From contig JANQGX010000032.1 of assembly GCA_028282885.1 (NCBI GenBank), positions 86,439 through 150,438 on the forward strand: a stretch of DNA of 64,000 bases, read 5' to 3'. The notes beneath the pieces are model-generated. The model was not told where the DNA came from. It did not search any database and worked only from the letters and a program-made list of their open reading frames with translations. This DNA is from SAR324 cluster bacterium. GTDB lineage: Bacteria > SAR324 > XYD2-FULL-50-16. Of this stretch, positions 16,862 through 64,000 are shown piece by piece. Position 1 is the stretch's first letter. Each line of letters opens with the position of its first letter. The translations under genes were made by a program, and so were the position numbers.

Positions 16862-19207
16862 ATGAAGTCATCAAAGTCGAGTTTGGGATCGGTCTCCGAA
16901 TGGTGGCAAAACAGGATCATCCGTACAAAGATACTGATTGGAATATTTGTGGGTGTATTTCTATTTCAAACCATCAGCACAACCTATCAAATGCAGCAGG
17001 TTGAAAAAGATATACTGGACACCTACAAACAGAATGCTCTCAACCTTTCCGTATCGGTCGATTGCATTATGCTCAAGGATCCCATTCTCTTTTTCAACCT
17101 GCTGGACCGAATCGGCAGAACAGAAGTGGTGGGAATCAAAATTGATGATAACCACCCTTCCTGCGTCGAACGCGACTCCTACCTGAAACGGTTGAAGAGT
17201 GCCTTTCTGGCAGAATTTGAACAGAAAAACCAATCAGACAACCAATCCGAACCTGTTCCGGCTGTTGATGAAGACATCGAGGTGATCAATGAAGAACCAG
17301 TAGAATCAAACCTCCCGGCGGCCACGCTGCTCAGCGGCAACGCTATCGACCTGAATTTCGATCTGGCAAGAGTCGAAGGTCAATTGGAGACAACGGAGAT
17401 CTTCATCAACGGAGAACTGCAACCCCAACTGCTCTATACGGTTAAAGTAAACGGGGTTGAGCTGACCTTCGACCTGACCGATCTGCCGGAACAGAAATTG
17501 AACCGCTTCCTGTTTCTCTTTTTCACCGCCCTGGGAAACCTGCTGGTCCTTTTTATTATCATCTGGCTGCTTAGTGGACGCCTGGTCGATCCGTTGAAGA
17601 AACTAACCCTTTTTGCACAGCATATCATGACCTCCGGAGTCCTTGAATCCGGGGGCGATATCGGACAGGTCAAGATCGAAACCAGGGATGAGATAGGTAT
17701 CCTGGCCAGGGCGATCAACAATATGACGGCAAAAATCCAGCAAAGCTACCGCCAGATCATTAAAAGCAAGGCTGCCATTGGCGATCTGCTGAATAATACC
17801 GGCCAAGGATTTTTCAGCTTCGGACCGGATTACTTGATAGATGAGGAGTATTCCAAAGCCTGTGACCTCTATTTTAAATCTTCTATATCGGGCCTGAATG
17901 CCCTGGAACTGATGGTGCCTGAGAATCTGAAAGAGGTAAAAGAGCTAACCGATCTCCTGTTTGACGGTGTCGGGGATCTCTCCCTGCTGGAAGATCTGCT
18001 GCCACGGGAGATATCTCTTCACCGGAGAATCCTGTCTGTGGAATATCGATTCATTAAGGCTGCCGGAGAAGAGCTGAAGGATAAGATGATGGTCATTCTG
18101 ACCGACATCACCCAGGAGAGAGAGCTTGAACACCAATTACAGAAAGATGAAGCCCTCAACGAACTGGTCATCAAAATAGCCAGGGACAGGGATGGTTTTA
18201 TGCAATTCGTTCAGGACACCAACAAGCTTTTGGGTTCTATGTCAACCGATCTGAAAGATCCGTCAGTGACGATTGACCCGGTAGCGGTTATGCATGACCT
18301 GCACACTGTCAAGGGTATTTCAGCCAGCTACGGCCTGGGCACCGTTGCAGAAACAACCCATCGCATCGAGGACTGGATTCAGGAAACAGGACCCGATGAG
18401 GTCTTTTCCAGCGGGGAGAATATTAAATCACTGGAATCATCCCTGCTTGAGCTGCGGCGAAACCTGAAGGATTCATTGGAGAATGTAAGGGATATCATCA
18501 CCTGGGACGAGATTGTTGGCAGCAAGCAGCGGTATTACAAAGTCAATGAGGAAAAAGTGGTGAGGCTGGAGGCAATGTTCAGCGATACCAAAAAGGTTCG
18601 TCTGAATGAGATTCGACAGGCTCTCTATGAGTTCCGTAAAGAGCCAATTCTGCCGGTTTTCAGGAAGTACGCGGGAACAGCCGAGAAGCTGGCAGAAAAA
18701 CTGGGCAAGCAGATCAAAGTGGAACTGGCAGGCACCGACGTGGAAGTTTTTTACAAACGTCTTGAACCCCTGTTTGATGTATTGGTACATCTGGTGCGAA
18801 ACTCGGTAGATCATGGTTTGGAATCTACTGAAAAACGATTGAAAACGGGGAAACCGGAAACCGGGGTCCTGGAACTGTCGGCCGGCTATCAGGACAATGA
18901 TCTGATCCTTGCGATAGCCGATGACGGTGGCGGTATTGAAACAGCTAAGGTGGTTAAGGCAGCCCTGGAGCGAGGGCTGATAACCGCAGAAGAGGCAGAT
19001 CAACTGGGGCAGGATGATGCCATCAGGTTGTTATTCAAACCCGGATTTTCAACCAGCGAAAGTGTCTCGGATATTTCCGGGCGAGGTATAGGCATGGACG
19101 CTGTAAAGTCCAAGGTTGCGGAACTGGGTGGCTCCATCTCGGTAAAAACCCGGAAAGGCAGAGGCACCACCTTTAGAATCCGGATTCCCGATCACCCATC
19201 GTCATGA
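16862..19207 (+). CDS. membrane sensor kinase with HAMP, Hpt and CheA-type ATPase domains
   Basis: 781 aa: TM - ~170-aa periplasmic region - TM - HAMP; Hpt-like motif HTVKGISASYG; CheA-like N box HLVRNSVDHGLE, G1 DDGGGIE, G2 GRGIGMDAV; no CheW-like or receiver domain. Confidence 0.7.
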   Translation: MKSSKSSLGSVSEWWQNRIIRTKILIGIFVGVFLFQTISTTYQMQQVEKDILDTYKQNALNLSVSVDCIMLKDPILFFNLLDRIGRTEVVGIKIDDNHPSCVERDSYLKRLKSAFLAEFEQKNQSDNQSEPVPAVDEDIEVINEEPVESNLPAATLLSGNAIDLNFDLARVEGQLETTEIFINGELQPQLLYTVKVNGVELTFDLTDLPEQKLNRFLFLFFTALGNLLVLFIIIWLLSGRLVDPLKKLTLFAQHIMTSGVLESGGDIGQVKIETRDEIGILARAINNMTAKIQQSYRQIIKSKAAIGDLLNNTGQGFFSFGPDYLIDEEYSKACDLYFKSSISGLNALELMVPENLKEVKELTDLLFDGVGDLSLLEDLLPREISLHRRILSVEYRFIKAAGEELKDKMMVILTDITQERELEHQLQKDEALNELVIKIARDRDGFMQFVQDTNKLLGSMSTDLKDPSVTIDPVAVMHDLHTVKGISASYGLGTVAETTHRIEDWIQETGPDEVFSSGENIKSLESSLLELRRNLKDSLENVRDIITWDEIVGSKQRYYKVNEEKVVRLEAMFSDTKKVRLNEIRQALYEFRKEPILPVFRKYAGTAEKLAEKLGKQIKVELAGTDVEVFYKRLEPLFDVLVHLVRNSVDHGLESTEKRLKTGKPETGVLELSAGYQDNDLILAIADDGGGIETAKVVKAALERGLITAEEADQLGQDDAIRLLFKPGFSTSESVSDISGRGIGMDAVKSKVAELGGSISVKTRKGRGTTFRIRIPDHPSS

Positions 19208-35584: not shown

Positions 35585-35814
35585 AAACTTTTCGAAAAAA
35601 CCCTCCCTAGTCAACCCACTGAATTAAGGAACGATCCACTATATTTGATCTTTTTCCGAATCCCACCTTTGATCCCGGCTAAACCATCCGCCATCTAAGG
35701 GCTGCATTCCCCCCGTTTGTATGCTAAAATCTAACTTTATTTTATGCTTTGGATTATCCGGAGCGGGTTTCCGCAACCCATCGTATTGCACCGTGTTAAT
35801 CGTTCAGATACGAA

Positions 35815-38601
35815 ATGAGTGGATCAATAACCGAGAAAGATCTGAAAAGGCACAAACTGCCAAGCCTGTTTACCGGTTTTGCTTTTGTGTTGCTGGCAAT
35901 CATTGTCGCCGATGCGGTGATCGTTATTCTTACCCGATTCGATCTCCGGGAGTTATTATCCCGGCAAAATGTTGATCCGTCTTCCCTGGTTGATTTTCAG
36001 TTTTTTGGATTCATTATCAAAACTTCCCTTGTAATGGCGGGAGTTGCCATTCTGATCCTTATCGCCCGGCAAAACACCACCATTGTCAGACAGTTGCAGA
36101 AGTCGATCAAACGGCAAAAAGAAAAAGAGGAACACAATCACACCAAATCGGCAGAACTTTCTGATATGATGAGGAGACTTGGGGACAAAAACAGGGATCT
36201 TGAGAAATACCAGGATCAGTTGGACAATGCCCTTTCCATAATTGCCCAAAAAGAAAGAGACCTGCGTATCATCTTTGAGAAATCTCCCTTGGGAATGATC
36301 AGGGTAGATGAAACTGGAGTGATCAGGGAGTTCAATGATCGCTCTTTTGAGATTTTGGGCTCCCAACGAGACAGACTTCAGGATTACCCGACTCTTGATA
36401 ACACCGTTCCCGAACTCCAAAAAACAATCAAACAGGCCATCAACGGGGAAAAAGCGATTTTTGAAGATACCTACACCTCGATAACCGGAACCCGTACTCT
36501 CTACATGAGGGTCATTGCCAATCCGGTCAATCCCGACAACCCCCCTACGGAAATCATCTGCTCTGTTGAGGATATTACCTATCGCAAAGAGATTGAAGAT
36601 CAGCTTTTGCAGTCCCGCGACAATCTTGAGAATCTGGTTAACCAGCGCACCACCGCTTTGCTGAGGGAGATTGAAGAAAGGAAACATGCCCAGGAAGAGT
36701 TAAGAAAAAGCGAAGAGCGTTATCGACTGATTACCGAGAACTCATCCGATGTGATCTGGACCCTCGATTTTTCAGGGAAATTCACTTATGTAAGTCCGTC
36801 CGTTAAACAACTGACCGGACATACCCAGGAGGAGATGCTGGCATTGCCAATGGATCAGACCCTTGTCCCCGAATCTGTGCAAAAGGTAATGAATACTCTT
36901 GAGCGGGAGTTGAGCAGACCGGAGGCCGAAAGAAAAACGCATGATTCCTTGGAGGTTCAACAATATACCAAAAACCGAGAAATCATCGATATCGAAGTAT
37001 CAGTAAGCTGGATTCTGGATGATGATAACCAGCCAATCGGTATCCAGGGCATCAGCAGGGATATTTCAGAGAGAAAACGGACAGAACAGGCGTTGCTTAA
37101 AAGTGAAGAAAAACACAGAACCATCCTGGAGAGCATTGATGACGCCTATTTCGAAAGCGATCTGGATGCCAATCTGACCTTCATCAATCGGGCTATGGAG
37201 GAGATGACCGGATATTCGGAAGCCGAACTGTTGGGGATACCCTTTCGGAAATATAACGATGAGAAGAGCTACGATATTGTTCACAATACTTTTTCCGAAG
37301 TCATCAAAACAGGCCGGAAACGTGGTCAGATCTACTGCAGCATTGTCACGAAGCAGAACAAAGTCAAACACATCGGTATGGTAGCAACCCCCAAAAGAGG
37401 TAAGGATGACACGATCATCGGCATCCAGGGAGTGGCCAGGGATATTACTGATCAGAGAAACCTGGAACAGAAACTGAGACAGACCCAGAAAATGGAGGCT
37501 ATCGGTAACCTCGCAGGTGGGGTTGCCCATGATTTCAATAATATTCTGGGCGGAATCCTGGGCTATGCCCAGTTAATTAAAAGCCATCCCGATTCCAAAA
37601 CCCGGGTTCTCTCTTTTGTGGATCATATCATTAAAGCCAGCAGCAGGGCGACCGGACTGATTAACCAGATTCTGCTCTTTTCCCGAAAAGGAGAAAGCCG
37701 GAAAATTCCCACCGATCTGGGCCTGATTACTGAAGAGGTGCTTAAACTCTTGCGAGCGTCAATTCCTGCAACAATCAAGATCAAACATCACTTTGAGAGC
37801 AATCTCAATCCGGTCCTGGCCGATCAGACACAGATTCACCAGGTCCTCATGAACCTGAGTAACAATGCGGCCCATGCCATGCGAGAGAACGGTGGCACTC
37901 TTGAGTTAAAACTGGAAAACTACTGGATCAACGAATCGGAAATCTTTAAATCTCCTGGTATGTCTTTGGGCTCCCATGTAAAACTATCGTTGATAGATAC
38001 GGGGCACGGGATGGATACAGCCACGCTGGAACGAATCTTTGATCCCTATTTCACAACAAAAAAGCAGGGAGAAGGAACCGGTCTTGGCCTGTCAAGTGTT
38101 CATGGCATAGTAGAGGACCATGGTGGCCACATACAGGTGGAAAGCCAACCCGGAGTAGGTACGACATTCTTCGTCTGCCTGCCTGCTATCGAACAGAATA
38201 TTGAGTCTGCAGAACTGGAGGATGATGCTCCCATGGGAAGTGAATCGATCCTCTTTGTGGATGATGAGGAATATCTCAGCAGTATCGGGAAAGAGATGCT
38301 GGAAGACTATGGTTACTCCGTTGAGGCATTGACAAATCCTGTTGAAGCCTTGAAGCTTTTTGAAGAGAATCCCGACAGGTTTGATCTCCTTATTACTGAT
38401 TTCACCATGCCGGAGATGACGGGGGACAAACTGGTTGACCGTATTCTGGAATTAAAGTCCCAATTTCCGGTTATCATGTGCACGGGGATTGTTCTTCCTC
38501 CCGAGATTCAGCAAAAACCAGGAATCAGCAGAATCGTCATGAAACCCCTGGATATGTACGCCCTCTTGAAAGTCATCAGGAAAACCCTGGACTCAAAATA
38601 G
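35815..38601 (+). CDS. hybrid sensor histidine kinase (TM, multiple PAS, HisKA, HATPase, C-terminal receiver)
   Basis: 928 aa; H-box HDFNNILGGILGYAQL, N/G boxes (NLSNNAAHAM; DTGHGMD; GTGLGLS), receiver ILFVDDEEY...DLLITDFTMPEMTG. Confidence 0.85.
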   Translation: MSGSITEKDLKRHKLPSLFTGFAFVLLAIIVADAVIVILTRFDLRELLSRQNVDPSSLVDFQFFGFIIKTSLVMAGVAILILIARQNTTIVRQLQKSIKRQKEKEEHNHTKSAELSDMMRRLGDKNRDLEKYQDQLDNALSIIAQKERDLRIIFEKSPLGMIRVDETGVIREFNDRSFEILGSQRDRLQDYPTLDNTVPELQKTIKQAINGEKAIFEDTYTSITGTRTLYMRVIANPVNPDNPPTEIICSVEDITYRKEIEDQLLQSRDNLENLVNQRTTALLREIEERKHAQEELRKSEERYRLITENSSDVIWTLDFSGKFTYVSPSVKQLTGHTQEEMLALPMDQTLVPESVQKVMNTLERELSRPEAERKTHDSLEVQQYTKNREIIDIEVSVSWILDDDNQPIGIQGISRDISERKRTEQALLKSEEKHRTILESIDDAYFESDLDANLTFINRAMEEMTGYSEAELLGIPFRKYNDEKSYDIVHNTFSEVIKTGRKRGQIYCSIVTKQNKVKHIGMVATPKRGKDDTIIGIQGVARDITDQRNLEQKLRQTQKMEAIGNLAGGVAHDFNNILGGILGYAQLIKSHPDSKTRVLSFVDHIIKASSRATGLINQILLFSRKGESRKIPTDLGLITEEVLKLLRASIPATIKIKHHFESNLNPVLADQTQIHQVLMNLSNNAAHAMRENGGTLELKLENYWINESEIFKSPGMSLGSHVKLSLIDTGHGMDTATLERIFDPYFTTKKQGEGTGLGLSSVHGIVEDHGGHIQVESQPGVGTTFFVCLPAIEQNIESAELEDDAPMGSESILFVDDEEYLSSIGKEMLEDYGYSVEALTNPVEALKLFEENPDRFDLLITDFTMPEMTGDKLVDRILELKSQFPVIMCTGIVLPPEIQQKPGISRIVMKPLDMYALLKVIRKTLDSK

Positions 38602-40930: not shown

Positions 40931-40943
40931 ATCAAATCAAGAC

Positions 40944-41012
40944 ACAGGGGTGGCATAACGCCTGAGATCAGACCCTTTGAACCTGACCCGGATAATACCG
41001 GTGTAGGGAACA
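40944..41012 (+). promoter_or_regulatory. TPP (thiamine pyrophosphate) riboswitch aptamer
   Basis: ACAGGGGUGGC...GCCUGAGAUCAGACCCUUUGAACCUGACCCGGAUAAUACCGGUGUAGGGAACAGC matches THI-box conserved core (GGGGUG, CUGAGA, ACCCUUUGAACCUGAUCUGGAUAAUGCCAGCGUAGGGAA) in plus orientation. Confidence 0.75.
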
Positions 41013-41563
41013 GCTTCTTTTTTGGCCTCTTCTCACTGCTTCCGTTCATTCCTGTCTTTTTCAAGTCATACCAAATTCTGTATACAATTGCTGTTTATCC
41101 AATGCATTGATCGTCGTAGCCGGTTTTTTGTTGGGCCATTTTCCGCCTCCTGATTCTCCCGGCAGATGTGGTTACGTCCAATCTGCCGGGAGCAGAAATC
41201 CTTTCAGAAAAAAAACCAACCGGAGACAGCTAGGTCGAAGACATGGCCGGTTCCCTGTTAAACGGTGGATTCAGTCAGTCAACAGTCACGTTTGCATCAG
41301 GTCCATGAGGGCAGTTCATTCTCCTTGGTGCTTAAAAAGAAATCGAGCCTGGTTCGGGAAAAGTTTAGTCCCGAAAATTTATGAATTTTTAAAGATACCT
41401 GACATGATGGTGTCAAAGATCCCTTTTATAGTATTAGGACAATCTTTTCCGAATCAAATCGGGATAGCTGATTGGCGGTCAAGCAGTTTATTGATTTGAC
41501 ACTGTTTCATTTATTTGTAATGACTGATGAATATAAAACGCAACACCTGAAGGGAGATTGATC

Positions 41564-52203: not shown

Positions 52204-53823
52204 GTGACCCTTGACATCAAGACACTGATGATCTGCAACGTCATCATCGCCTTGTTTTTCTGTATGGCTTTCTCGTTTTACATGGTGGGTCGGAAAACCC
52301 AGGCCGGATTTCGTTTATGGACCGTCGGCATCCTCTTTCACGCTCTCGGATTCCTGTTTTTGGTTATGCGCGGTACAATCCCCACCGGCCTTAGCATTTT
52401 GCTAGCCAACGGATTAATTATCCTGTCCGTTGTCTTAAGGCTGGACGCCATTTACCGGCTTGTCGGTAATAAAACCCTGGCAAAGTCCATCTACCTGGTT
52501 CCTTTGGTTGTCTGCCTGGTCTGCTTCTATTTTTATCGGTTTATCGACCACATCGGCGTCCGCAGTCTGGTTGTCAGTATCACCCTCTTTTTACTGGCTC
52601 TTGCTTTTGCCAGAAAACTGATCCAAAAGCGCTCTCCGCGAAATCGATATCTCTATTATTTTGCTGCGGGATTTATCCTGATCAGGGGATCGAGTCTGAT
52701 GATCAGGGCTCTGGACTGTTTGGTTCATCCGGAGATAAACATTTTTACAGCGGGACCGCGACATTCGACGCATTTTCTGATCGCTTTAATAGCCGAGGTC
52801 GGAATTAACATCATTTTTCTAATGATGAATATGCAACAGGCGGAAGAGGAGTTGTACCGGGTACACGTCAAGATGGCGGAGAACCATGACGAATTGAGAC
52901 GCCTTTCCATGACCGATACCCTTACAGGGCTTTTGAATCGAAGGGCCGCGATGCCGATCATCAACAGGGAGATGGAAAGAACCAACCGTTTTGGTCAACC
53001 GGTGAGTCTGATCATCCTGGATATCGATCATTTCAAAAAGGTGAACGATACCTGTGGACACGATGTAGGGGACAAGGTTTTGGTCGGCTTTTCCGATCTT
53101 GTCAGGGAGAATTGCCGGAAAATCGATTCCGTGTCCCGCTGGGGTGGAGAAGAGTTTGTCATCATCGCCAGTCACACCAATGCTGACAATGCCGCGATCC
53201 AGGCGGAGAAAATTCGTCGGACGATAATGAACCGCCGGTTTGACAAGATTGGCACCGTCACTATCAGTGCCGGGATCTCGACTTACCACCCACGCGAGTC
53301 ATTTGAAGAGTGGTTCAAACGGGCAGACGAGGCCCTGTACATGGCCAAGGAAAACGGTCGTAATCGAGTGGATATCCATCCCCTGGATCGGGTAACAGAG
53401 AAGTCAATGGATACCATTCAACAGGTTTTCAGTATCAACTGGCAAGAGGAGTTCAGTTCAGGGAACGACCTGATTGACGCCCAGCACAGGGGCCTGATTA
53501 AACAGTCGAACCTGATCATTGATGCGATCATGAACAATAGTGAGACCGCGATTCTCAAAAGCGAGCTTGATAAACTCCTGAGTCTGACCTTAAGGCATTT
53601 CCAGGATGAGGAAAAGATCCTGCGTGATCATCAATTTTCGCTACTGGACAGTCATGCGGAGGAGCATCGAAGATTTACGGAAGAACTGCAACAAAACATC
53701 CGCCGCTTTTCTGAAGATGACTTGGATGCGTATCACCTTCTGAGATTTGTCTGCCACGATCTCGTGATCGGCCATATGATTAACAAGGACAAATCCTACC
53801 ACTATTGTCTGAACATGAATTGA
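52204..53823 (+). CDS. membrane diguanylate cyclase (GGDEF) with C-terminal hemerythrin-like domain
   Basis: N-terminal ~200 aa multi-TM; GGDEF domain with active site RWGGEEFVII; C-terminal ~130 aa with hemerythrin H/E ligand pattern (HR...H...HF...E...H...H). Confidence 0.8.
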   Translation: MTLDIKTLMICNVIIALFFCMAFSFYMVGRKTQAGFRLWTVGILFHALGFLFLVMRGTIPTGLSILLANGLIILSVVLRLDAIYRLVGNKTLAKSIYLVPLVVCLVCFYFYRFIDHIGVRSLVVSITLFLLALAFARKLIQKRSPRNRYLYYFAAGFILIRGSSLMIRALDCLVHPEINIFTAGPRHSTHFLIALIAEVGINIIFLMMNMQQAEEELYRVHVKMAENHDELRRLSMTDTLTGLLNRRAAMPIINREMERTNRFGQPVSLIILDIDHFKKVNDTCGHDVGDKVLVGFSDLVRENCRKIDSVSRWGGEEFVIIASHTNADNAAIQAEKIRRTIMNRRFDKIGTVTISAGISTYHPRESFEEWFKRADEALYMAKENGRNRVDIHPLDRVTEKSMDTIQQVFSINWQEEFSSGNDLIDAQHRGLIKQSNLIIDAIMNNSETAILKSELDKLLSLTLRHFQDEEKILRDHQFSLLDSHAEEHRRFTEELQQNIRRFSEDDLDAYHLLRFVCHDLVIGHMINKDKSYHYCLNMN

Positions 53824-55671: not shown

Positions 55672-57051
55672 TTGTTGAATATCCTATTCCCGGGATTGAT
55701 CACTGTTAAGGAAACCCGGGAGATAATGATACATAGCAGGCCGTCATTCCGGCGGCGAGGTAATCAATTGAGAAAACAGGAAACAGATATTCGTAACCAG
55801 ACAACGCTGGTGCAGGATTCATCGCGGAAGAATTCGGCAGGGGACTGTCACAGGGCGATACAAAAATCAGAAGGAGAGTCTGAAAAAAGCAAATCGATCA
55901 TCAAGGTATTGATTTTGCCCATTTATCTTCCCTCTATCCTGATGTCCATCGGAACGGGCATGATTTTACTGGTTATTCCTCTTTTAGCTGCAGAGCTGAC
56001 CGGGGAGTATGCCACAGCCAGTCTTATTTTCGCAATGTTTGGGGCGGGAACCCTGGCCTCCGATTTGCCCTCGGGAGTGCTGGTATCCCGTCTTGGTATT
56101 AAACCGGCCATGATGATGGGTATTATCTTTTCCGCTACTTCAGCGATTGTTGCAGGTCTCATTGGAACGGCATTCATCCTCGGCCTCGCCGGTTTTTTTC
56201 TGGGTGCGGGTCGGGGATTGGTTATGATTTGTCGAATGACCTATATTGCCGATGCCACCGACACCGAGAGAGGAAAAGCCATGGCCACGGTAGGCGGCAT
56301 GATGCGTGTGGGTATGCTGACAGGTCCCGTGCTCGGAGGATACCTGGCCAGATCGTTCGGTTTCGGTACAACCCTGGTCATCGCCGGTATCTTTACCGGA
56401 AGCTCTCTTCTCTTTGTTTCTTATCTCGCTGCCTCACGCAAAAGTGCAACAGCTATACACCATGGAAACCCTTTCAAGGCGATCGGTTCGATTCTGGTGC
56501 GTTACCGGCAGGTTTTTTTAACAGCAGGTTCCGCACTGATCGGATTGCAGTTATTACGCGCAGCACGGATTGTGATTGTGCCTTTTTGGGGGAACTCGAT
56601 TGGATTGGATGTTGCCCAAATCGGCTTGATCACCGGTATTTCCATGGGACTGGAACTGGCCATGTTTTACCCGGTTGGTGTCGTTATGGATCGCTATGGC
56701 AGAAAATGGACTGCTGTACCCTGTATTGCCATCCTGGGCCTCTCGTTCGCTTTAATCCCTCTCAGTTATGATTTCACAAGCCTGCTATTGGTGGTTTTGG
56801 TCGCAGGACTGGGAAACGGGCTGGGGAGTGGAATTTTCCTGACCCTGGGAGCAGATTTCTCTCCGGCAGATGACAGAAGCAGTTTTATGGGAGTCTGGCG
56901 TTTGATTGGCGATAGCGGGCACACTTCAGGGCCTTTTCTGATAGGCTTGTTGACCGGTGTTTTTACCTTGGCAATGGCATCCCTGGTGACGGCAGGCATC
57001 GGACTCTGTAGTGCAGCCATGATGCTTTTTCTGGTAAAAGAGAGTCGTTAA
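55672..57051 (+). CDS. MFS transporter
   Basis: 12-TM MFS architecture from ~aa 85 onward; first ~90 aa hydrophilic so true start may be internal (MSIGTGMILL..., ~55945). Confidence 0.75.
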   Translation: MLNILFPGLITVKETREIMIHSRPSFRRRGNQLRKQETDIRNQTTLVQDSSRKNSAGDCHRAIQKSEGESEKSKSIIKVLILPIYLPSILMSIGTGMILLVIPLLAAELTGEYATASLIFAMFGAGTLASDLPSGVLVSRLGIKPAMMMGIIFSATSAIVAGLIGTAFILGLAGFFLGAGRGLVMICRMTYIADATDTERGKAMATVGGMMRVGMLTGPVLGGYLARSFGFGTTLVIAGIFTGSSLLFVSYLAASRKSATAIHHGNPFKAIGSILVRYRQVFLTAGSALIGLQLLRAARIVIVPFWGNSIGLDVAQIGLITGISMGLELAMFYPVGVVMDRYGRKWTAVPCIAILGLSFALIPLSYDFTSLLLVVLVAGLGNGLGSGIFLTLGADFSPADDRSSFMGVWRLIGDSGHTSGPFLIGLLTGVFTLAMASLVTAGIGLCSAAMMLFLVKESR

Positions 57052-59357
57052 TCCCTGTCCCCGGCTTTTTTCCTGGGCTTTCCACCGGTGGGCAGTTTGA
57101 TAATGAACTTAGCTCCCTTTCCCGGCTCGGATTCAACGACCATCTCACCACCATGGTTTTCAGTAATAATAAAATACGAGACGCTCAATCCGAGACCGGT
57201 TCCTAATCCTGCTGACTTGGTAGTGAAAAAGGGTTCGAAGACCCGCTTGCGAGTGAACTCATCCATTCCGGGACCGTTATCCTCGATCTCCAAACAGATC
57301 CTTTTCCGTTCTTTCTCAAATCCGATCCGGAGGATAAAGGTCGGATTGATTGTCCCAGATTTCTGCATGGACTGCGCTCCGTTACTGAGGATATTGAGAA
57401 TAACCTGCTGAATTTTGGCTCCTTCGCAGGGTACCGGGGGTATATGTTCTTCATACTCCTTTACGATCTGCACTTTTTTGAAATCATAATGCTTTTTCAG
57501 ACTATAATCGGCAGCCGCCAGTTCCAGGGTCTTGTCCAGTAATTGTGGTAAATAGTGGGACGATTTCTGATCATCGCTCTTTCGTGCAAAACTGAGCATA
57601 TTGGAGACGATTTCAGAGACTCTCTGCCCGGATTCATTGATCGCGTCAATCATAGTGGGGATACCCCGGGTTTCCATATAGGTTTTGATATCCCTGAGAT
57701 CAATGCCGATCGATTCCGCAACCTTCTGATTGGCCTGCATGGAGATATTGATTAACCGCTCCTTCATTACATTCGCGGTTTGTATCATCCCGGCCAGTGG
57801 ATTGTTGATTTCATGTGCCATCCCGGCTGCGAGACCACCAACGCTGAGCATTTTTTCGCTTTGGATCATCATCTCTTCCATACGCACTTTATCCGTCACC
57901 TCGTCAATTCGGATAACTGCACCTTCGGTTCCGTTGGTGATCAGGGGGTAGATGGTGATATCTTCATAACGAAGCTTGCTGCCGTCAGCTACTTTCTTTT
58001 TTCGTTCCTGGATTACACTACGGGTGCGAATACTTTCGGAAATCTTGTTGAACTCCTCCGCTAACCTTGGAAAAAGCGATTCCAGGGTTTTCCCCAGGGC
58101 ATCACTGGCTTCGATGCCGGTGCGATTTTCTGTTGCCTTGTTCCACTGGGTCACATTTCCATCGTTATCTACGCCTACCAGGATGGATGGCATGGAATTG
58201 ATGATGTTGGAGAGATAGTTGCGCAATTGAATAATCTTCTCTTCCGCTTTTTTTTGCTCGGAGATATCGCTTGCAGTGATTCCCAGGCCGTCGTCCACCT
58301 TAAATACTCGAACATAAAGATGCATCTTTCCGTAGCTGAGATTGACTTCATCCGTTTCGTAGTGGTGGGGAACACCCGTTTCCATCACCTTCCTGTAGGC
58401 TTCCAACCGCCCTCTCTCTTCAATACCCGGAACGAGAGTTCGTATGTTTTTCCCTACCAGGTCTTCCTTGAGGGTGCCCGGGGGACTCAAAGCAAGGGCA
58501 GCCAGATTCATATCCACCAGGTTCAGTTCAGTATCCCAGAGTGTGCTCGCATCCACAGCCGAGTCCATGAAGTTTTTCATTTTTAACTGGCTGAGCCTTA
58601 ACTCTTCCTGTGCTTCCTTAATTTCAGTGCACTCTTCTGCCACTCCATGAAACCAATCTTTCTCCGGAATCAGATTCCCGGAATATCGCACCCACATGAT
58701 AGAACTGTCGTTGCGGTAAAATCGAGCTTCAAAACTGGAAATCTGTCCTTTGGCTATCAGTTCGGATGCCATTCTTTCCCTGGTTCCGGGATCGACATAT
58801 CTGTCGATTATATTAAAATTGTCAGACAGCATCTCTTCTCGGTTTTGGTAACCAAAAAGATGGGCTAAACGGTCATTACAATCCACCAGATATCCATCGC
58901 CAATCGATGATCTGAACATGCCGACCTGCGAATTCATAAACATGTGTTGATAGGTGTCTTCCGCCAGTCTTCTTTCGGCTTCCATGCTTGCCATACGCAA
59001 AGCCATTTCCACGGTCACTTTGACAGCCTGGTCACGGATGGGTTTTATCAGAAATCCATAACTGGTAGGGATTTTATCCTTCTCAATCTGATCAATGTCT
59101 CTATCGTAAAGGCAGAAGATGATCGGTACATCCGATTTGGAAAGAATGATTCCGGCCGCGTCACCTCCTTTGATCGGTCCTTTCAGCTCCAGATCCATCA
59201 GGATAAGGTCGGGTTTTTCCTGATCAGCCAGGTTAATAATGGCATCACCGCTGTCAACCAAAACGATTTGACTGTAACCCAGACTTTTCAAACTGATTTC
59301 CAATTCAGCGGAAGTATACGGATCTTCTGCAGCTATCAGAATTCTGGTGTTCTCCAT
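57048..59357 (-). CDS. hybrid signalling protein: N-terminal receiver, PAS domains, HisKA, HATPase
   Basis: Receiver (ILIAAEDP...DLILMDLEL), two or more PAS, H-box HEINNPLAGM, N/G boxes (NILSNGAQSM; DNGPGMD; GTGLGLS). Confidence 0.85.
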   Translation of the reverse strand: MENTRILIAAEDPYTSAELEISLKSLGYSQIVLVDSGDAIINLADQEKPDLILMDLELKGPIKGGDAAGIILSKSDVPIIFCLYDRDIDQIEKDKIPTSYGFLIKPIRDQAVKVTVEMALRMASMEAERRLAEDTYQHMFMNSQVGMFRSSIGDGYLVDCNDRLAHLFGYQNREEMLSDNFNIIDRYVDPGTRERMASELIAKGQISSFEARFYRNDSSIMWVRYSGNLIPEKDWFHGVAEECTEIKEAQEELRLSQLKMKNFMDSAVDASTLWDTELNLVDMNLAALALSPPGTLKEDLVGKNIRTLVPGIEERGRLEAYRKVMETGVPHHYETDEVNLSYGKMHLYVRVFKVDDGLGITASDISEQKKAEEKIIQLRNYLSNIINSMPSILVGVDNDGNVTQWNKATENRTGIEASDALGKTLESLFPRLAEEFNKISESIRTRSVIQERKKKVADGSKLRYEDITIYPLITNGTEGAVIRIDEVTDKVRMEEMMIQSEKMLSVGGLAAGMAHEINNPLAGMIQTANVMKERLINISMQANQKVAESIGIDLRDIKTYMETRGIPTMIDAINESGQRVSEIVSNMLSFARKSDDQKSSHYLPQLLDKTLELAAADYSLKKHYDFKKVQIVKEYEEHIPPVPCEGAKIQQVILNILSNGAQSMQKSGTINPTFILRIGFEKERKRICLEIEDNGPGMDEFTRKRVFEPFFTTKSAGLGTGLGLSVSYFIITENHGGEMVVESEPGKGAKFIIKLPTGGKPRKKAGDRD

Positions 59358-59630
59358 TTGTTTGGACTATTGGTTTTCAGGTCGGTTTTTGAATTGTTTT
59401 GGATAAACCGATAATCAATCAAATGCCAGGGGTGATTATCCATTTGGATCAGGCTTCATGGTACAGGAAAAGCTCCAGAACCTCAAAAGGTATTTACAGG
59501 AGCTTTCCTGCTCGGGATTGCTAAGATTTTGGGGGCAATTTCTAATTAAAATGTCAACAGAAAATGCAGCCCTTCCTACTGCAGTAGAAGCCACACATAA
59601 AGGTCAGAATAATAATGATTCTTTTATCTG

Positions 59631-62256
59631 GTCTCATTCCACGCTCCCGCGGGGGGAGTGACGAGTTATCATTCTGGAAAACCATTCAGCAAGCGGAGTT
59701 TCAATCCACGCTCCCGCGGGGGGAGCGACCCAGGCCCATATGGCGAGAGTTGGTATTTATGGAGTTTCAATCCACGCTCCAGCGGGGGGAGCGACGCCGT
59801 CTTATCGCCTCAATCGAAGTATTGTCATAGTTTCAATCCACGCTCCAGCGGGGGGAGCGACGATCTGTTGGAAAAAATTAAATATACCCAGCGAGGCTTC
59901 AATCCACGCTCCCGCGGGGGGAGTGACGCGTCTGCAATCTTTTGTTCGTCGATTTCATACCAGTTTCAATCCACGCTCCAGCGGGGGGAGCGACTCAATA
60001 GCAATGCGTATTTCCAGAGCTGCTAAAGTTTCAATCCACGCTCCCGCGGGGGGAGCGACAAACTTTTGATGATGAATCGACTGTCCAGGGCTGTTTCAAT
60101 CCACGCTCCAGCGGGGGGAGCGACTTCATCGGAGGGGATGATTTTCTCTTTGGAGTCATAGTTTCAATCCACGCTCCCGCGGGGGGAGCGACTTTTGGGC
60201 GCAACGGTATTTTTACCAAACACTTATTGTTTCAATCCACGCTCCCGCGGGGGGAGCGACTGATTTTCGATTAACCGGCGCTTCAGCAGGGTCTTGTTTC
60301 AATCCACGCTCCCGCGGGGGGAGCGACCACTGATACTGAGGGGGTTTTCACTTTCACCGAAGTTTCAATCCACGCTCCCGCGGGGGGAGCGACGAGGTAA
60401 GGTGGAGATTGTATCAATCAGCTGATTGTGTTTCAATCCACGCTCCCGCGGGGGGAGCGACGAAGTTGATCGGGAAAGACTGCAATTCGGTCAACTGTTT
60501 CAATCCACGCTCCCGCGGGGGGAGCGACTGTCAGTTCCCTACAGCATAGGGAAATCAAAGAAGTTTCAATCCACGCTCCCGCGGGGGGAGCGACTTATGT
60601 TCAATCCAGCGGGAGCGATGATGTCAACTGTTTCAATCCACGCTCCCGCGGGGGGAGCGACCCGAGATCGGAAAGACAATCTTGATCGTTTCATAGTTTC
60701 AATCCACGCTCCCGCGGGGGGAGCGACCACCGTTGCTCCTATTACAGCAAATGATCAAATTTAGTTTCAATCCACGCTCCCGCGGGGGGAGCGACGGATT
60801 ACTTTATTTCTTCATGCTCGATTTTTTCAAGTTTCAATCCACGCTCCCGCGGGGGGAGCGACCACTCATAACAATGGTATCTGGAAATGATGAAATAGTT
60901 TCAATCCACGCTCCCGCGGGGGGAGCGACGAGTTTGCTTCCTTGAGCGCCCCATCTATCTTGATGTTTCAATCCACGCTCCCGCGGGGGGAGCGACGAAG
61001 TAGGATTCAGAGACTTTAGCCGGATCAGTGGGTTTCAATCCACGCTCCCGCGGGGGGAGCGACATCACATAGCCTTTCTTGATATACATTCCAGGTGTGT
61101 TTCAATCCACGCTCCCGCGGGGGGAGCGACGAAACTGGATGCCAGGGACTTGTGGTTTGGAATGTTTCAATCCACGCTCCCGCGGGGGGAGCGACATGGA
61201 AGATAAAATCGTTGAACTAACCCCCGAAGTTTCAATCCACGCTCCCGCGGGGGGAGCGACACGATTGCCCCATTAAACAGTCTGACTATCCTATCGTTTC
61301 AATCCACGCTCCCGCGGGGGGAGCGACTTGGTGTAATTCTGGATTATCCATTCCATTAATGGTTTCAATCCACGCTCCCGCGGGGGGAGCGACGTTCAGG
61401 ATGCCAATCTTTCCGCTCATGTTTATAGTTTCAATCCACGCTCCCGCGGGGGGAGCGACCGAATTTCAGCCGATCCTGTTCATTGCAGATGAGTTTCAAT
61501 CCACGCTCCCGCGGGGGGAGCGACTAAACATAGAGATCATCAAGAACGGCAATTAAAAGTTTCAATCCACGCTCCCGCGGGGGGAGCGACGCAAGCTTCA
61601 AAAAGGCCCATGCTTCAAAGACGGAGTTTCAATCCACGCTCCCGCGGGGGGAGCGACTTTTAAACATATTCCGAGACGTTCTCAAATTAATGTTTCAATC
61701 CACGCTCCCGCGGGGGGAGCGACACTTCCTTGATATTTATCATCTCTCCTTCGACGTCGTTTCAATCCACGCTCCCGCGGGGGGAGCGACCCTCTGTTCA
61801 GGGCTCCGGAAGCTTCGAAATATTGTTTCAATCCACGCTCCCGCGGGGGGAGCGACACTGAAATATTCTGTTGAAAAGCCATTGTTGGATAGTTTCAATC
61901 CACGCTCCCGCGGGGGGAGCGACGCAAAAAATGCAAAACTGCAGTTTCAAAAAAATGGTTTCAATCCACGCTCCCGCGGGGGGAGCGACCATCAAAGAAA
62001 CGCTCTTCTTTGTGATATCCAGTGTTTCAATCCACGCTCCCGCGGGGGGAGCGACTTTTTCTGCTTCGGGTATTTGCGGGCAATAGCGGTGTTTCAATCC
62101 ACGCTCCCGCGGGGGGAGCGACTCGCTGTCTCTTGCGACTGAAAGCGAACCTAGAACTGTTTCAATCCACGCTCCCGCGGGGGGAGCGACTCCAGGTAGA
62201 ATCGAGTATTATCACCGCTGTATCGTTTCAATCCACGCTCCCGCGGGGGGAGCGAC
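59631..62256 (-). CRISPR. type I-C CRISPR array, 40 repeats / 39 spacers
   Basis: 32-bp repeat, plus-strand form GTTTCAATCCACGCTCCCGCGGGGGGAGCGAC = reverse complement of I-C-type GTCGCTCCCCCCGCGGGAGCGTGGATTGAAAC; spacers 33-36 nt; degenerate/variant repeats (GTCTCATTCC..., ...CCAGCGG..., ...GAGTGAC) cluster at low-coordinate (leader-distal) end. Confidence 0.95.
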
Positions 62257-62445
62257 TGTAGCGGTATTAAAGTTAGATTTTTCAATCCATTAAGCTACTT
62301 GTACCGCTAACCACTGTTTTCTTCGTTAAACAAGAAAACGTATTTTTTATCAAATCAATGAAAATCATTATTTTAATCAAATATTTCAGAATGATACTGT
62401 ACTGCGCTAATCCAACGGCAACTTCTTATGAACTTAGGGGTAGCG
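62257..62445 (-). promoter_or_regulatory. CRISPR leader (AT-rich) between cas2 and array
   Basis: AT-rich 189-bp segment adjacent to newest repeat; contains a truncated repeat remnant TTTCAATCCA at ~62277..62289. Confidence 0.5.
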
Positions 62446-62751
62446 CTATACGATTATTGGATCATCGGGAGAAGAAACTGCTTTAGCTCCGAAATGTTCA
62501 ACCCTGCGTTTCCAATTTGAACCAAGGTAGTAGAAACGAAGTGAATCCTCTTCGGGGTAATAGGTGCTCAACAAACGAGCTTTCAATTTTTCCCATTGTC
62601 CCGGATCGACATTACACTCGAAGACTGAATACTGAACACGTTGTCCAAAATCCAGACAGTGTTTGGCAATTCGCCTCAGTCTTCGTTCTCCGTCTCTCTC
62701 AATTGTTGCCACGTCATAAGATACAAGAACCAGCATTTGAATCATCTCCAA
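62446..62751 (-). CDS. cas2: CRISPR-associated endoribonuclease Cas2
   Basis: 101 aa, MLVLVSYDV... Cas2 N-terminal motif; overlaps cas1 end. Confidence 0.9.
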   Translation of the reverse strand: MEMIQMLVLVSYDVATIERDGERRLRRIAKHCLDFGQRVQYSVFECNVDPGQWEKLKARLLSTYYPEEDSLRFYYLGSNWKRRVEHFGAKAVSSPDDPIIV

Positions 62752-63773
62752 ATAAAAGCAGGATAATAGTCCAGATCACCTCTGATATGTCTTGATAGCA
62801 GTATGGTTTGTACATGGAATAGCAGTCCGATCTTGATCTTTTCCTTCAAAATCGGATGGTTAAGTGTTTCCTGTTTTCGCTTCTGGTAGGCTGTGAGCAA
62901 TGTTTTCCTTGCTGTGTCAGACATTAACACAGCTCCGTTTTCAGTATTCTTAAAATCGCTAATCTTCAGTTGCTGAAGATTGATGAGGCTTAGAGCAAGG
63001 CGATCCCCAAGAAAAGCCCTGAACTCTTCCAGCAGATCCAAAGCCAGACTTTGTCGGCCGGGGCGGTCTCTATGTAGAAAACCAACATAAGGATCTAATC
63101 CCACACCTTCCAGCGCAGAAACGCAATCTTGTAACATAATGGCGTAAATGAATGAAAGAAGGGCATTTACCGGATCTCTCGGAGGTCTTCTGTTTCTTCC
63201 TGCAAATTTAAAATCATCCTTTTGCTGTGTAATCAGATTTTGAAAATTCTTAAAATAGCAGTTGGCAGCTTCACCTTCTCTACCACGAAGAGAATCAAGA
63301 TCCGCTATGTTCTGAACTTTTCCAAGTGTTCTTTTTAATTCCGCGACGGCGATTTTGAGATCTGTAGCTCCGGCACATTCAGGATTATTACGCAACATTC
63401 TCTGGAATACCGTCCGGCTGTTAGAGATTTTTGAAGCTACTATGAACCGGGATATACTTGTCGATTTAACGGGGTCATCAGCCCATCGGTATTGCTCCCT
63501 TCTCAACAGCACGTTACCGGTTTGAGGTCCCTGAATCCTTGCCTGGAATCGACCATATTCACTGAAATGAGCTATACCAATGCCGTTCTGGCTGCAGGCA
63601 AGCATCAGTTGAGGTGAAAGCGATATCCTTCCGAGACAGAAGATATTGGATAAGGTCAATAGAGGAAGCTGCAGTGCTTTTTTTCTTTCAATCTCCACAA
63701 CCACGGTTTCCCGATCTTTATGGAGGTATGCTCCTTCTGTAGTTACAAAGAGTGTATTCAGTAGTTTCTTCAA
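62742..63773 (-). CDS. cas1: CRISPR-associated endonuclease Cas1 (type I-C)
   Basis: 343 aa, MKKLLNTLFVTTEGAYL... typical Cas1 N-terminus and conserved acidic residues; TTG start overlapping cas4 stop. Confidence 0.9.
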   Translation of the reverse strand: MKKLLNTLFVTTEGAYLHKDRETVVVEIERKKALQLPLLTLSNIFCLGRISLSPQLMLACSQNGIGIAHFSEYGRFQARIQGPQTGNVLLRREQYRWADDPVKSTSISRFIVASKISNSRTVFQRMLRNNPECAGATDLKIAVAELKRTLGKVQNIADLDSLRGREGEAANCYFKNFQNLITQQKDDFKFAGRNRRPPRDPVNALLSFIYAIMLQDCVSALEGVGLDPYVGFLHRDRPGRQSLALDLLEEFRAFLGDRLALSLINLQQLKISDFKNTENGAVLMSDTARKTLLTAYQKRKQETLNHPILKEKIKIGLLFHVQTILLSRHIRGDLDYYPAFIWR

Positions 63774-64000
63774 TCATCCTCCTGAAAAAGGATTTCTTCA
63801 TAACGTTTACGTTTTATCACACTGTTCAATTTAGGATTGCATATGTCAAAGAGAGAGCAACTTTTGCATCTTTTCTCATATTCAGGTTTCGGAGTTACGC
63901 CCTTTGAGATTAGACGATGCAGTTTTTCCGTGAGTCTTTTTGTTTCCTCTCTCAGGTTGTCATCAAAGCAGATATTTGTTCGGCGTCGTTTTTCTCCATA
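63770..64000 (-). CDS. cas4: Cas4 (C-terminal fragment; gene continues beyond window end)
   Basis: Manual translation ...YGEKRRRTNICFDDNLREETKRLTEKLHRLISKGVTPKPEYEKRCKSCSLFDICNPKLNSVIKRKRYEEILFQEDD*; C-terminal Cys cluster C-x2-C-x5-C typical of Cas4 Fe-S site; stop overlaps cas1 start. Confidence 0.75.
   Translation of the reverse strand, partial: YGEKRRRTNICFDDNLREETKRLTEKLHRLISKGVTPKPEYEKRCKSCSLFDICNPKLNSVIKRKRYEEILFQEDD

What the first reader, a model, noticed from the sequence alone, without database searches (positions are those of the whole stretch)
59631..64000. Type I-C CRISPR-Cas locus caught at window edge: 40-repeat array, leader, cas2-cas1-cas4
Repeat sequence and gene order (cas4-cas1-cas2-leader-array on the minus strand) are diagnostic of subtype I-C.
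- The array is large, with 39 spacers of 33-36 nt.
- Repeat variants (C to A at repeat position 19; GAGTGAC terminus; GTCTCATTCC start) are confined to the oldest end, consistent with polarised acquisition.
- The leader holds a truncated repeat remnant (~62277).
- The remaining cas genes (cas7, cas8c, cas5, cas3) should lie just beyond 64000.
A large, orderly array suggests active adaptation. The spacers are a record of this organism's mobile elements.
Basis: partly seen in the sequence, partly recalled or inferred. Interest (0 to 1): 0.5.

Follow-up and report, generated by a model that had tools for sequence, protein, structure and literature searches.

The report
Ordinary type I-C CRISPR-Cas locus
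This is a complete, canonical type I-C CRISPR-Cas immune locus (40 repeats, 39 spacers, leader, cas2-cas1-cas4, with the effector genes just past the window edge); it is a new example of a well-known system, not a new kind of system.

Summary
Window 59631-62256 carries 40 copies of a 32-nt repeat and 39 unique spacers of 33-36 nt. It is read on the minus strand as GTCGCTCCCCCCGCGGGAGCGTGGATTGAAAC. A 189-nt AT-rich leader follows, then cas2, cas1c and the 3' part of cas4.

Two public contigs are 100% identical to window 62230-64000. They continue into cas4-cas7-cas8c-cas5c-cas3, and every one of these proteins passes its curated I-C model cut-off.

The repeat folds into the I-C hairpin, which covaries across relatives. 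It differs at 3 of 32 positions from the repeat of the Desulfovibrio vulgaris pDV reference locus.

The leader carries the conserved I-C motif (GGTTAGCGG) at the usual distance from the first repeat. All variant repeats lie at the trailer end.

No spacer matched the window, INPHARED phages or PLSDB plasmids. None of the 14 spacers scanned matched IMG/VR, and none matched 79 metagenome arrays with the identical repeat. Targets and PAM therefore remain unknown.

Two small oddities remain. The leader holds a 10-nt copy of the repeat's 3' handle. One spacer looks like a collapsed repeat.

This is a new member of a known kind, of low interest.

The parts
59631..62256 (-). CRISPR array: 40 repeats of 32 nt (GTCGCTCCCCCCGCGGGAGCGTGGATTGAAAC as transcribed) and 39 unique spacers of 33-36 nt
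   Evidence: enumerate the repeats. The hairpin is predicted and covaries. Spacers are unique.
59631..60124 (-). Trailer (oldest) end of the array, repeats 1-8. It contains all six variant repeats: nos 1 and 5 share C29T, and nos 3, 4, 6 and 8 share C18A (+ strand numbering).
   Evidence: In the transcribed orientation these changes hit stem positions 4 and 15 of the hairpin found.
59565..59583 (-). Terminator-like hairpin followed by a T-run, 48 nt downstream of the last repeat. It is a possible end of the pre-crRNA transcript.
   Evidence: Consensus scan. This is a pattern match only.
62257..62445 (-). Leader: 189 nt, 32% GC against 47.5% for the window, lying between the cas2 stop and the first repeat
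62302..62312 (-). Conserved I-C leader motif GGTTAGCGGTA, at -56 to -46 from the first repeat
   Evidence: In 54 of 90 distinct I-C leaders, TCGCGGAA (2 mismatches or fewer) starts at -52 or -53. The D. vulgaris pDV leader carries the related GGTTCGCGG at the same -56 offset as the window's GGTTAGCGG. The closest relative L126 carries the identical GGTTAGCGG, with its GTTAGCG core at -55.
62280..62289 (-). Copy of the repeat's 3' handle (TGGATTGAAA, 10/10), 23 nt upstream of the first repeat
   Evidence: It is absent from 33 leaders attached to the identical repeat. Only ATTGAAA is shared at the same offset with the closest relative L126.
62446..62736 (-). cas2 (96 aa from the ATG; a 101-aa TTG-start ORF 62446-62751 is also open)
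   Evidence: TIGR01573 at 66.5 bits against a cut-off of 24.5.
62742..63773 (-). cas1c (343 aa)
   Evidence: TIGR03640 at 500.6 bits against a cut-off of 385. It aligns end to end with the I-C Cas1 of PDB 8D3L, and E166, H234 and E249 are conserved.
63770..64000 (-). 3' part of cas4 (last 76 codons, including the C-terminal CxxCxxxxxC cysteines). The full gene of 221 aa runs 435 nt beyond the window.
   Evidence: It aligns with the Cas4 chain of PDB 8D3L.
60595..60629 (-). Spacer 15, which contains a collapsed copy of the repeat (TCGCTCCC-GC-TGGATTGAA)

Best explanation
This is a canonical, apparently intact type I-C (Dvulg) CRISPR-Cas adaptive immunity locus. It is transcribed on the minus strand.

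**Shown here.** The gene and array anatomy, the subtype assignment, the repeat hairpin, the conserved catalytic residues and the conserved leader motif.

**Inferred from established knowledge of I-C systems.**
- The leader drives a pre-crRNA through the 40-repeat array.
- Cas5c cuts at the 3' base of each 7-bp repeat hairpin. This gives crRNAs with an 11-nt UGGAUUGAAAC 5' handle and a 21-nt 3' hairpin.
- Cas5c, Cas8c and Cas7 form Cascade, which recruits Cas3 to degrade matching DNA next to a PAM (usually 5'-TTC).
- Cas4-Cas1-Cas2 selects and trims PAM-bearing prespacers and inserts them at the leader-repeat junction. As a result the newest spacers lie at 62224 and the oldest at 59663.
For: - **Array.** 40 repeats and 39 unique spacers of 33-36 nt.
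- **In-window genes.** Cas1c, Cas2 and Cas4 match their models.
- **Effector genes.** Contigs identical to the window continue into cas4-cas7-cas8c-cas5c-cas3 with no cas6. Scores against cut-offs: Cas8c 542.8 vs 218.65, Cas7/Csd2 411.5 vs 182.25, Cas5c 175.1 vs 85. Cas3 has both HD and helicase domains.
- **Reference locus.** Gene order and orientation match D. vulgaris pDV. By my own count, the repeat agrees with the pDV repeat at 29 of 32 positions, one difference being a compensatory U-A for C-G pair.
- **Hairpin.** Predicted at -13 kcal/mol. It is 100% paired across 26 family repeats, with 4 of 7 pairs covarying.
- **Catalytic residues.** Cas1 E166, H234 and E249, and the Cas4 nuclease and Fe-S motifs, are conserved relative to PDB 8D3L. 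E166 is the active-site residue named in 10.1101/2022.05.30.494039.
- **Leader.** The motif sits at the family's fixed distance from the first repeat. Subtype-specific motifs in I-C leaders are described in 10.1101/2023.05.26.542337.
- **Polarity.** The 32 leader-proximal repeats are identical, and all variants lie at the trailer end.
Against: - Nothing contradicts the assignment.
- Activity is not shown. No protospacer was found, so neither the targets nor the PAM could be checked.
- No sigma-70-like promoter was picked up in the leader by the simple scan.
- The effector genes are seen on separate short-read contigs that overlap the window by 1.77 kb, not on the window itself.
Confidence: 0.93

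Rival explanations
1. The locus is a type I-C system by descent but is no longer acquiring or using spacers. It would be a static, inherited array rather than one under active adaptation.
For: - No spacer matches any phage, plasmid or viral contig searched.
- No spacer is shared with 79 other arrays carrying the identical repeat.
- The trailer end is identical in two samples of one study, and the leader end is identical in two samples. No variation between samples was seen, although the short-read contigs break inside the array.
- No clear promoter was found in the leader.
Against: - All seven cas genes are full length and pass curated cut-offs.
- Catalytic residues are intact.
- The leader motif is conserved.
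- 32 consecutive repeats are identical, which is what recent duplication of the first repeat produces.
- A lack of database hits is usual for spacers from uncultured environmental organisms.
Confidence: 0.15
2. The handle-like remnant in the leader (TGGATTGAAA), the next 23 nt and the first repeat together encode a crRNA-like regulatory RNA. This RNA would guide Cascade to a partially matching host target, as CreA/CreR-type or mini-array elements do.
For: - The remnant is 10/11 identical to the predicted crRNA 5' handle and is followed by a full repeat hairpin.
- Repeat-like regulatory elements in cas loci are described in 10.1101/2023.03.03.530964.
- ATTGAAA sits at the same offset in the closest relative, L126.
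Against: - No upstream hairpin exists that would let Cas5c generate the 5' end.
- No match to the 23-nt segment lies upstream of cas3 or anywhere in L001.
- The only seed match in the window is 12 nt of the 23-nt segment starting at 35728, or 14 nt (35726-39) if the two A's of the adjoining remnant are counted. It has TAA rather than a TTC PAM and is about what chance allows for a 189-nt leader against 128 kb.
- The remnant is absent from the other 32 leaders attached to the identical repeat.
- By my own count, the two related leaders are about 50% identical without gaps (leader sequences), so a shared 7-mer is not significant.
Confidence: 0.03
3. The adaptation module and array belong to a different Cas4-containing subtype (I-B, I-D, I-G or V) and not to I-C.
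For: Cas1 also gives sub-threshold hits to the I-G, I-D and I-B models.
Against: - Those hits are all below their cut-offs, and only the I-C model passes.
- The I-C signature gene cas8c/csd1 and cas5c are present on the identical contigs.
- The repeat family matches the I-C archetype.
Confidence: 0.01

Closest known systems
Type I-C (Dvulg) CRISPR-Cas locus of Nitratidesulfovibrio (Desulfovibrio) vulgaris Hildenborough plasmid pDV (NC_005863.1)
   Same: - Same gene order and orientation: array, leader, cas2, cas1c, cas4, cas7c, cas8c, cas5c, cas3.
- 32-nt repeat identical at 29 of 32 positions by my own count, with the same hairpin and the same GTGGATTGAAAC 3' end.
- The leader motif GGTT(C/A)GCGG sits at -56 in both.
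   Different: - cas nucleotide identity is only about 65%.
- The locus here lies next to ordinary housekeeping and signalling genes and is not on a known plasmid.
- The spacers are unrelated.
Type I-C Cas4-Cas1-Cas2 adaptation complex with solved structures (PDB 8D3L/8D3M/8D3P/8D3Q; described in 10.1101/2022.05.30.494039)
   Same: - Cas1 has the same length (343 aa) and aligns end to end (329 bits), with E166, H234 and E249 conserved.
- Cas4 aligns over residues 4-214 (167 bits), with the nuclease and cysteine motifs present.
   Different: The sequences have diverged, by eye roughly half of residues being identical in the alignments. No biochemistry exists for this ortholog.
79 public metagenome stretches carrying the identical 32-nt repeat (L084-L162; activated sludge, bioreactor, sediment and others). 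The closest is L126 (Ga0180009_10000899).
   Same: - The repeat is identical and spacer lengths are similar, mode 34 nt.
- L126 shares 76% nucleotide identity over cas1/cas2 and has the same GGTTAGCGG leader motif at the same spacing.
   Different: No shared spacers and no similar flanks. The leaders are otherwise unalignable.

Membership tests
Type I-C (Dvulg) CRISPR-Cas | Signature large subunit Cas8c/Csd1 | tested here: met
   TIGR01863 at 542.8 bits against a cut-off of 218.65, on L001:5750-7489. L001 is 100% identical to window 62230-64000. The gene itself lies outside the window.
Type I-C (Dvulg) CRISPR-Cas | Cas5c (Cas5d) present and no Cas6 endoribonuclease in the operon | tested here: met
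   TIGR01876 at 175.1 bits against a cut-off of 85. The gene list from cas3 to cas2 contains no other gene.
Type I-C (Dvulg) CRISPR-Cas | Cas7 of the Csd2 family | tested here: met
   TIGR02589 at 411.5 bits against a cut-off of 182.25
Type I-C (Dvulg) CRISPR-Cas | Single Cas3 with fused HD nuclease and helicase (defines type I) | tested here: met
   TIGR01596 (HD) at 94.8 bits and TIGR01587 (helicase core) at 108.8 bits, both above cut-off and on one 743-aa protein
Type I-C (Dvulg) CRISPR-Cas | Cas1 of the I-C clade | tested here: met
   TIGR03640 at 500.6 bits against a cut-off of 385. All other subtype-specific Cas1 models score below their cut-offs.
Type I-C (Dvulg) CRISPR-Cas | Stand-alone cas4 upstream of cas1, and operon order cas3-cas5-cas8c-cas7-cas4-cas1-cas2-array | tested here: met
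   The order is the same as in the annotated D. vulgaris pDV locus.
Type I-C (Dvulg) CRISPR-Cas | Repeat of about 32 nt with a GC-rich 7-bp hairpin and a 3' ...GGATTGAAAC tail that becomes the 11-nt crRNA 5' handle | tested here: met
   Repeat sequence and fold. Covariation holds across 26 family repeats, with 100% of cells paired and 4 of 7 pairs compensatory. That this tail becomes the handle is taken from published I-C work and was not tested here.
Type I-C (Dvulg) CRISPR-Cas | Subtype-typical leader motif at a fixed distance from the first repeat | tested here: met
   GGTTAGCGG at -56 to -48. In 54 of 90 I-C leaders, TCGCGGAA-like sequence starts at -52 or -53. Subtype-specific I-C leader motifs are reported in 10.1101/2023.05.26.542337.
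Type I-C (Dvulg) CRISPR-Cas | 5'-TTC PAM next to protospacers | tested here: inconclusive
   No protospacer was found in the window, INPHARED phages, PLSDB plasmids, IMG/VR for the 14 spacers scanned or the fetched loci. No PAM could therefore be read.
Type I-C (Dvulg) CRISPR-Cas | crRNA processing by Cas5c, Cascade-Cas3 interference and spacer uptake actually occur | not testable with these tools
   This needs RNA sequencing and interference or adaptation assays.

The most novel reading that the evidence does not exclude
Two repeat-derived oddities might reflect biology beyond a textbook I-C locus.

1. Spacer 15 (60595-60629) contains a collapsed copy of the array's own repeat. This could mean that the host immunised itself against a mobile element carrying a degenerate I-C repeat, for example a solitary repeat unit, an RNA anti-CRISPR or a rival array.
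2. The 5'-handle copy in the leader (62280-62289), together with the first repeat, could yield a crRNA-like regulatory RNA.

Neither reading is excluded and neither is supported beyond sequence resemblance.
Probability: 0.04. Interest if true: 0.45.

Novelty: new member of a known kind. Interest (0 to 1): 0.15.

Why it matters
The value is limited.
- It adds one more intact I-C system from an uncultured organism. Its Cas1 is at most about 60% identical to any GTDB species representative.
- It adds 39 spacers with no match in the collections searched. These could later link this host to its viruses if viromes from the same samples are examined.
- It also gives a clean worked example of the conserved I-C leader motif at a fixed -52/-53 position.

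None of this changes what is known about CRISPR-Cas.

Tried and rejected
1. **Self-targeting.** Spacers were compared with the rest of the window and with L001. The longest match was 14 nt, which is chance level.
2. **Spacer targets.**
   - The whole array was run with blastn (word 11) against INPHARED phages and PLSDB plasmids. Only other I-C arrays came back, with no protospacers.
   - Seven IMG/VR scans used pairs of spacers merged into IUPAC patterns and covered 14 spacers. All returned 0 hits. A first attempt failed because a pattern needs at least 14 unambiguous bases.
3. **Shared history with other arrays.** None of the 79 metagenome stretches with the identical repeat shares a spacer or a flank with the window. 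None of their 1584 unique spacers targets the window beyond chance.
4. **Leader remnant as a general I-C feature.** Rejected. It is absent from 33 leaders with the same repeat and is not positionally conserved among 60 GTDB loci. Only the closest relative shares ATTGAAA at the same offset.
5. **Leader remnant as a regulatory crRNA-like element.** No PAM-flanked target was found.
6. **Protospacer of spacer 15.** Its exact 19-mer core occurs in two near-identical IMG/VR contigs, inside a coding stretch. The flanks do not match the spacer, so this is not the protospacer.
7. **Rfam.** No family hit in the array at gathering thresholds.
8. **Repeat-like elements elsewhere.** No extra repeat-like or mini-array element was found upstream of cas3 or elsewhere.
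9. **Sample identity.** The SRA run numbers are not mentioned in the paper library. The host taxon could not be determined.
Full report
**1. Observation**

The region was read directly and searched with the 32-nt unit. Exactly 40 copies lie between 59631 and 62256, with none elsewhere in the window on either strand.

The 39 spacers measure 33-36 nt: 5, 14, 15 and 5 spacers of 33, 34, 35 and 36 nt. All are different from one another. Tandem Repeats Finder sees the same array.

Repeats 9-40 are identical. Variants occur only in repeats 1, 3, 4, 5, 6 and 8, counted from 59631.
- C18A (+ strand numbering) is in repeats 3, 4, 6 and 8.
- C29T is in repeats 1 and 5.
- Repeats 1 and 5 carry further changes at their 5' ends.

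It is position 18. Otherwise the description is exact.

**2. Genes in the window**

On the minus strand, three genes follow the array.
- cas2 lies at 62446-62736 and matches TIGR01573.
- cas1 lies at 62742-63773. It scores 500.6 bits against the I-C model TIGR03640 (cut-off 385). All other subtype-specific Cas1 models fall below their cut-offs.
- The last 76 codons of cas4 lie at 63770-64000.

Cas1 aligns over its whole 343 residues with the I-C Cas1 of PDB 8D3L and keeps E166, H234 and E249. E166 is the active-site residue mutated in the structural study 10.1101/2022.05.30.494039.

The full Cas4, taken from L001, aligns with the Cas4 chain of the same structure. It keeps the nuclease motif and the C-terminal cysteines, which lie inside the window.

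**3. Beyond the window edge**

An exact-sequence look-up of Cas1 returned two Logan contigs from SRR20820739 and SRR20820740. They are 100% identical to window 62230-64000 and stop inside the first repeat.

They carry cas3, cas5, cas8c, cas7, cas4, cas1 and cas2 in that order, with no cas6. Scores against curated cut-offs:
- Cas8c/Csd1: 542.8 bits (cut-off 218.65)
- Cas7/Csd2: 411.5 bits (cut-off 182.25)
- Cas5c: 175.1 bits (cut-off 85)
- Cas3: both the HD and helicase models pass on one protein

The evidence comes from overlapping contigs of what is evidently the same organism, not from the window itself.

The trailer side of the array is likewise identical in contigs from SRR20820739 and SRR20820733.

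**4. Repeat family**

Eighty loci encoding Cas1 relatives (44-60% identity) were fetched from GTDB species representatives. About sixty of them had a detectable array. All but a few truncated consensus calls read GTCGC-stem-loop-stem-GTGGATTGAAAC.

The plasmid search hit the I-C archetype on D. vulgaris Hildenborough pDV. Its annotated locus has the same order and orientation. By my own count, its repeat differs at 3 of 32 positions, two of which form a compensatory pair.

The window's repeat folds into a 7-bp hairpin with a 5-nt loop and an 11-nt single-stranded tail. Across 26 distinct family repeats the helix is paired in 100% of cells, and 4 of 7 pairs show changes on both sides. No shuffled or slid control comes close to these values.

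In the transcribed orientation, the trailer-end variants fall on stem positions 4 and 15. They therefore weaken the hairpin, as expected for decaying old repeats.

**5. Leader**

The 189 nt between cas2 and the first repeat are 32% GC, against 47.5% for the window.

Comparing leaders showed a conserved block, consensus GGTTCGCGGAA. In 54 of 90 distinct I-C leaders, TCGCGGAA with 2 mismatches or fewer starts at -52 or -53 from the first repeat. The window has GGTTAGCGGTA at -56 to -46 (62312-62302). D. vulgaris pDV and the closest relative L126 have the motif at essentially the same position.

Subtype-specific motifs in I-C leaders are already reported in 10.1101/2023.05.26.542337, which cites Santiago-Frangos et al. 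2021. This is a membership feature and not a discovery. It does independently confirm the array's orientation and suggests an integration-competent leader.

**6. The "truncated repeat remnant"**

TGGATTGAAA lies at 62289-62280 on the minus strand. It matches 10/10 to the repeat's 3' end, which is the future crRNA 5' handle, and ends 23 nt before the first repeat. My rough estimate puts a chance 10-mer match to the repeat in a 189-nt leader at about 1%.

The remnant is not a family feature.
- None of 33 leaders attached to the identical repeat has it.
- Among GTDB loci, only scattered handle-like strings occur, at other offsets.
- The closest relative, L126, has 76% nucleotide identity in cas1/cas2. 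It shares only ATTGAAA at the same offset, within leaders that by my own count are about 50% identical anyway.

I also tested whether the remnant, the next 23 nt and the first repeat could form a crRNA-like regulator.
- The 23-nt segment has no match upstream of cas3 or anywhere in L001.
- Its only seed match in the window starts at 35728, upstream of a hybrid histidine kinase. That match is 12 nt of the segment, or 14 nt (35726-35739) if the two A's of the adjoining remnant are counted.
- That match lacks a TTC PAM and is at chance level for leader against window.

I treat the remnant as a vestige or a lineage-specific leader element of unknown significance.

**7. Spacers**

No spacer matched any of the following.
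- The rest of the window or L001, where the longest match was 14 nt
- INPHARED phages
- PLSDB plasmids
- IMG/VR, where 14 spacers were scanned as merged pairs with exact matching only
- The fetched GTDB loci

The identical repeat occurs in 79 public metagenome stretches, in arrays of up to 171 copies. None of them shares a spacer or a flank with the window. None of their 1584 unique spacers hits the window above chance.

The targets and the PAM therefore stay unknown. "Active adaptation" remains an inference. It rests on intact genes, an intact leader motif, and a run of 32 identical leader-proximal repeats.

**8. An unexplained detail**

Spacer 15 (60595-60629) reads AGTTGACATCA-TCGCTCCCGCTGGATTGAA-CATAA. 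Its core is the repeat with the loop and the 3' stem arm deleted.

Its alignment score to the repeat is 26.
- The next-best window spacer scores 14.
- The maximum among 1584 spacers from same-repeat arrays is 21.
- None of 20,000 random 35-mers reaches 26.

The unit has a normal 35-nt length. It was therefore probably acquired as a prespacer from DNA carrying a degenerate I-C repeat and was not made by a deletion in place.

The 19-nt core occurs in two near-identical IMG/VR contigs, but within a coding stretch and with unrelated flanks. That is not the source.

**9. Verdict**

The locus is a standard type I-C CRISPR-Cas system, a new member of a known kind. Interest is low. The two repeat-derived oddities, the leader handle copy and spacer 15, are the only non-textbook features, and neither is presently more than a curiosity.

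Noticed in passing
window 60595-60629: Spacer 15 contains a collapsed copy of the array's own repeat (TCGCTCCC-GC-TGGATTGAA). Its similarity to the repeat exceeds that of all 1584 spacers from same-repeat arrays and of 20,000 random 35-mers. The source is unknown.
   Followed up: partly
window 59631-60124: The two repeat variants are interleaved with consensus repeats. Repeats 1 and 5 carry C29T, repeats 3, 4, 6 and 8 carry C18A, and repeats 2 and 7 are consensus. Simple duplication of the first repeat would give blocks, so this pattern hints at old recombination, deletion or recurrent mutation at the trailer end.
   Followed up: no
window 62268-62281 (-) and 35726-35739 (+): The 14-nt string AAAATCTAACTTTA is shared between the leader and the region about 80 nt upstream of a 928-aa PAS/HisKA/receiver hybrid kinase gene (35815-38601). 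There is no TTC PAM. I judged it chance level.
   Followed up: partly
window 1999-2009 (+): An exact 11-mer TGGATTGAAAC, identical to the crRNA handle, sits at the end of an ORF far from the array. No adjacent repeat hairpin is present, so it is probably coincidence.
   Followed up: no
window 40936-41026 (+): TPP riboswitch (RF00059, 61.2 bits, above the gathering score)
   Followed up: no
L001:2400-2815 (upstream of cas3, outside the window): A 73-aa ORF with no Pfam or NCBIfam hit lies just upstream of cas3. By eye, and from memory only, it and the out-of-frame sequence before it resemble a broken ORF6N/KilA-N-type DNA-binding gene. A DUF4143 AAA ATPase gene lies beyond it.
   Followed up: partly
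window 52204-53823 (+), 57048-59357 (-), 35815-38601 (+), 16862-19207 (+): The neighbourhood is rich in signalling proteins. These are a GGDEF-hemerythrin protein (its weak Cas10-palm hit is just GGDEF/palm homology), two PAS hybrid histidine kinases with receiver domains, and a HAMP/Hpt kinase. No other defence genes were seen next to the CRISPR locus.
   Followed up: partly
INPHARED records MT836695.1, MT836291.1, MT838487.1 (hits H1-H3): Three unannotated 'Bacteriophage sp.' contigs from human faecal samples match the array only through I-C-like repeats. They therefore seem to carry CRISPR arrays or mis-binned host DNA.
   Followed up: no
L084-L162: The exact 32-nt repeat of this window is widespread in public metagenomes (activated sludge, bioreactors, sediments). 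It is attached to very different leaders and flanks, so the repeat is shared across unrelated genomic backgrounds.
   Followed up: partly
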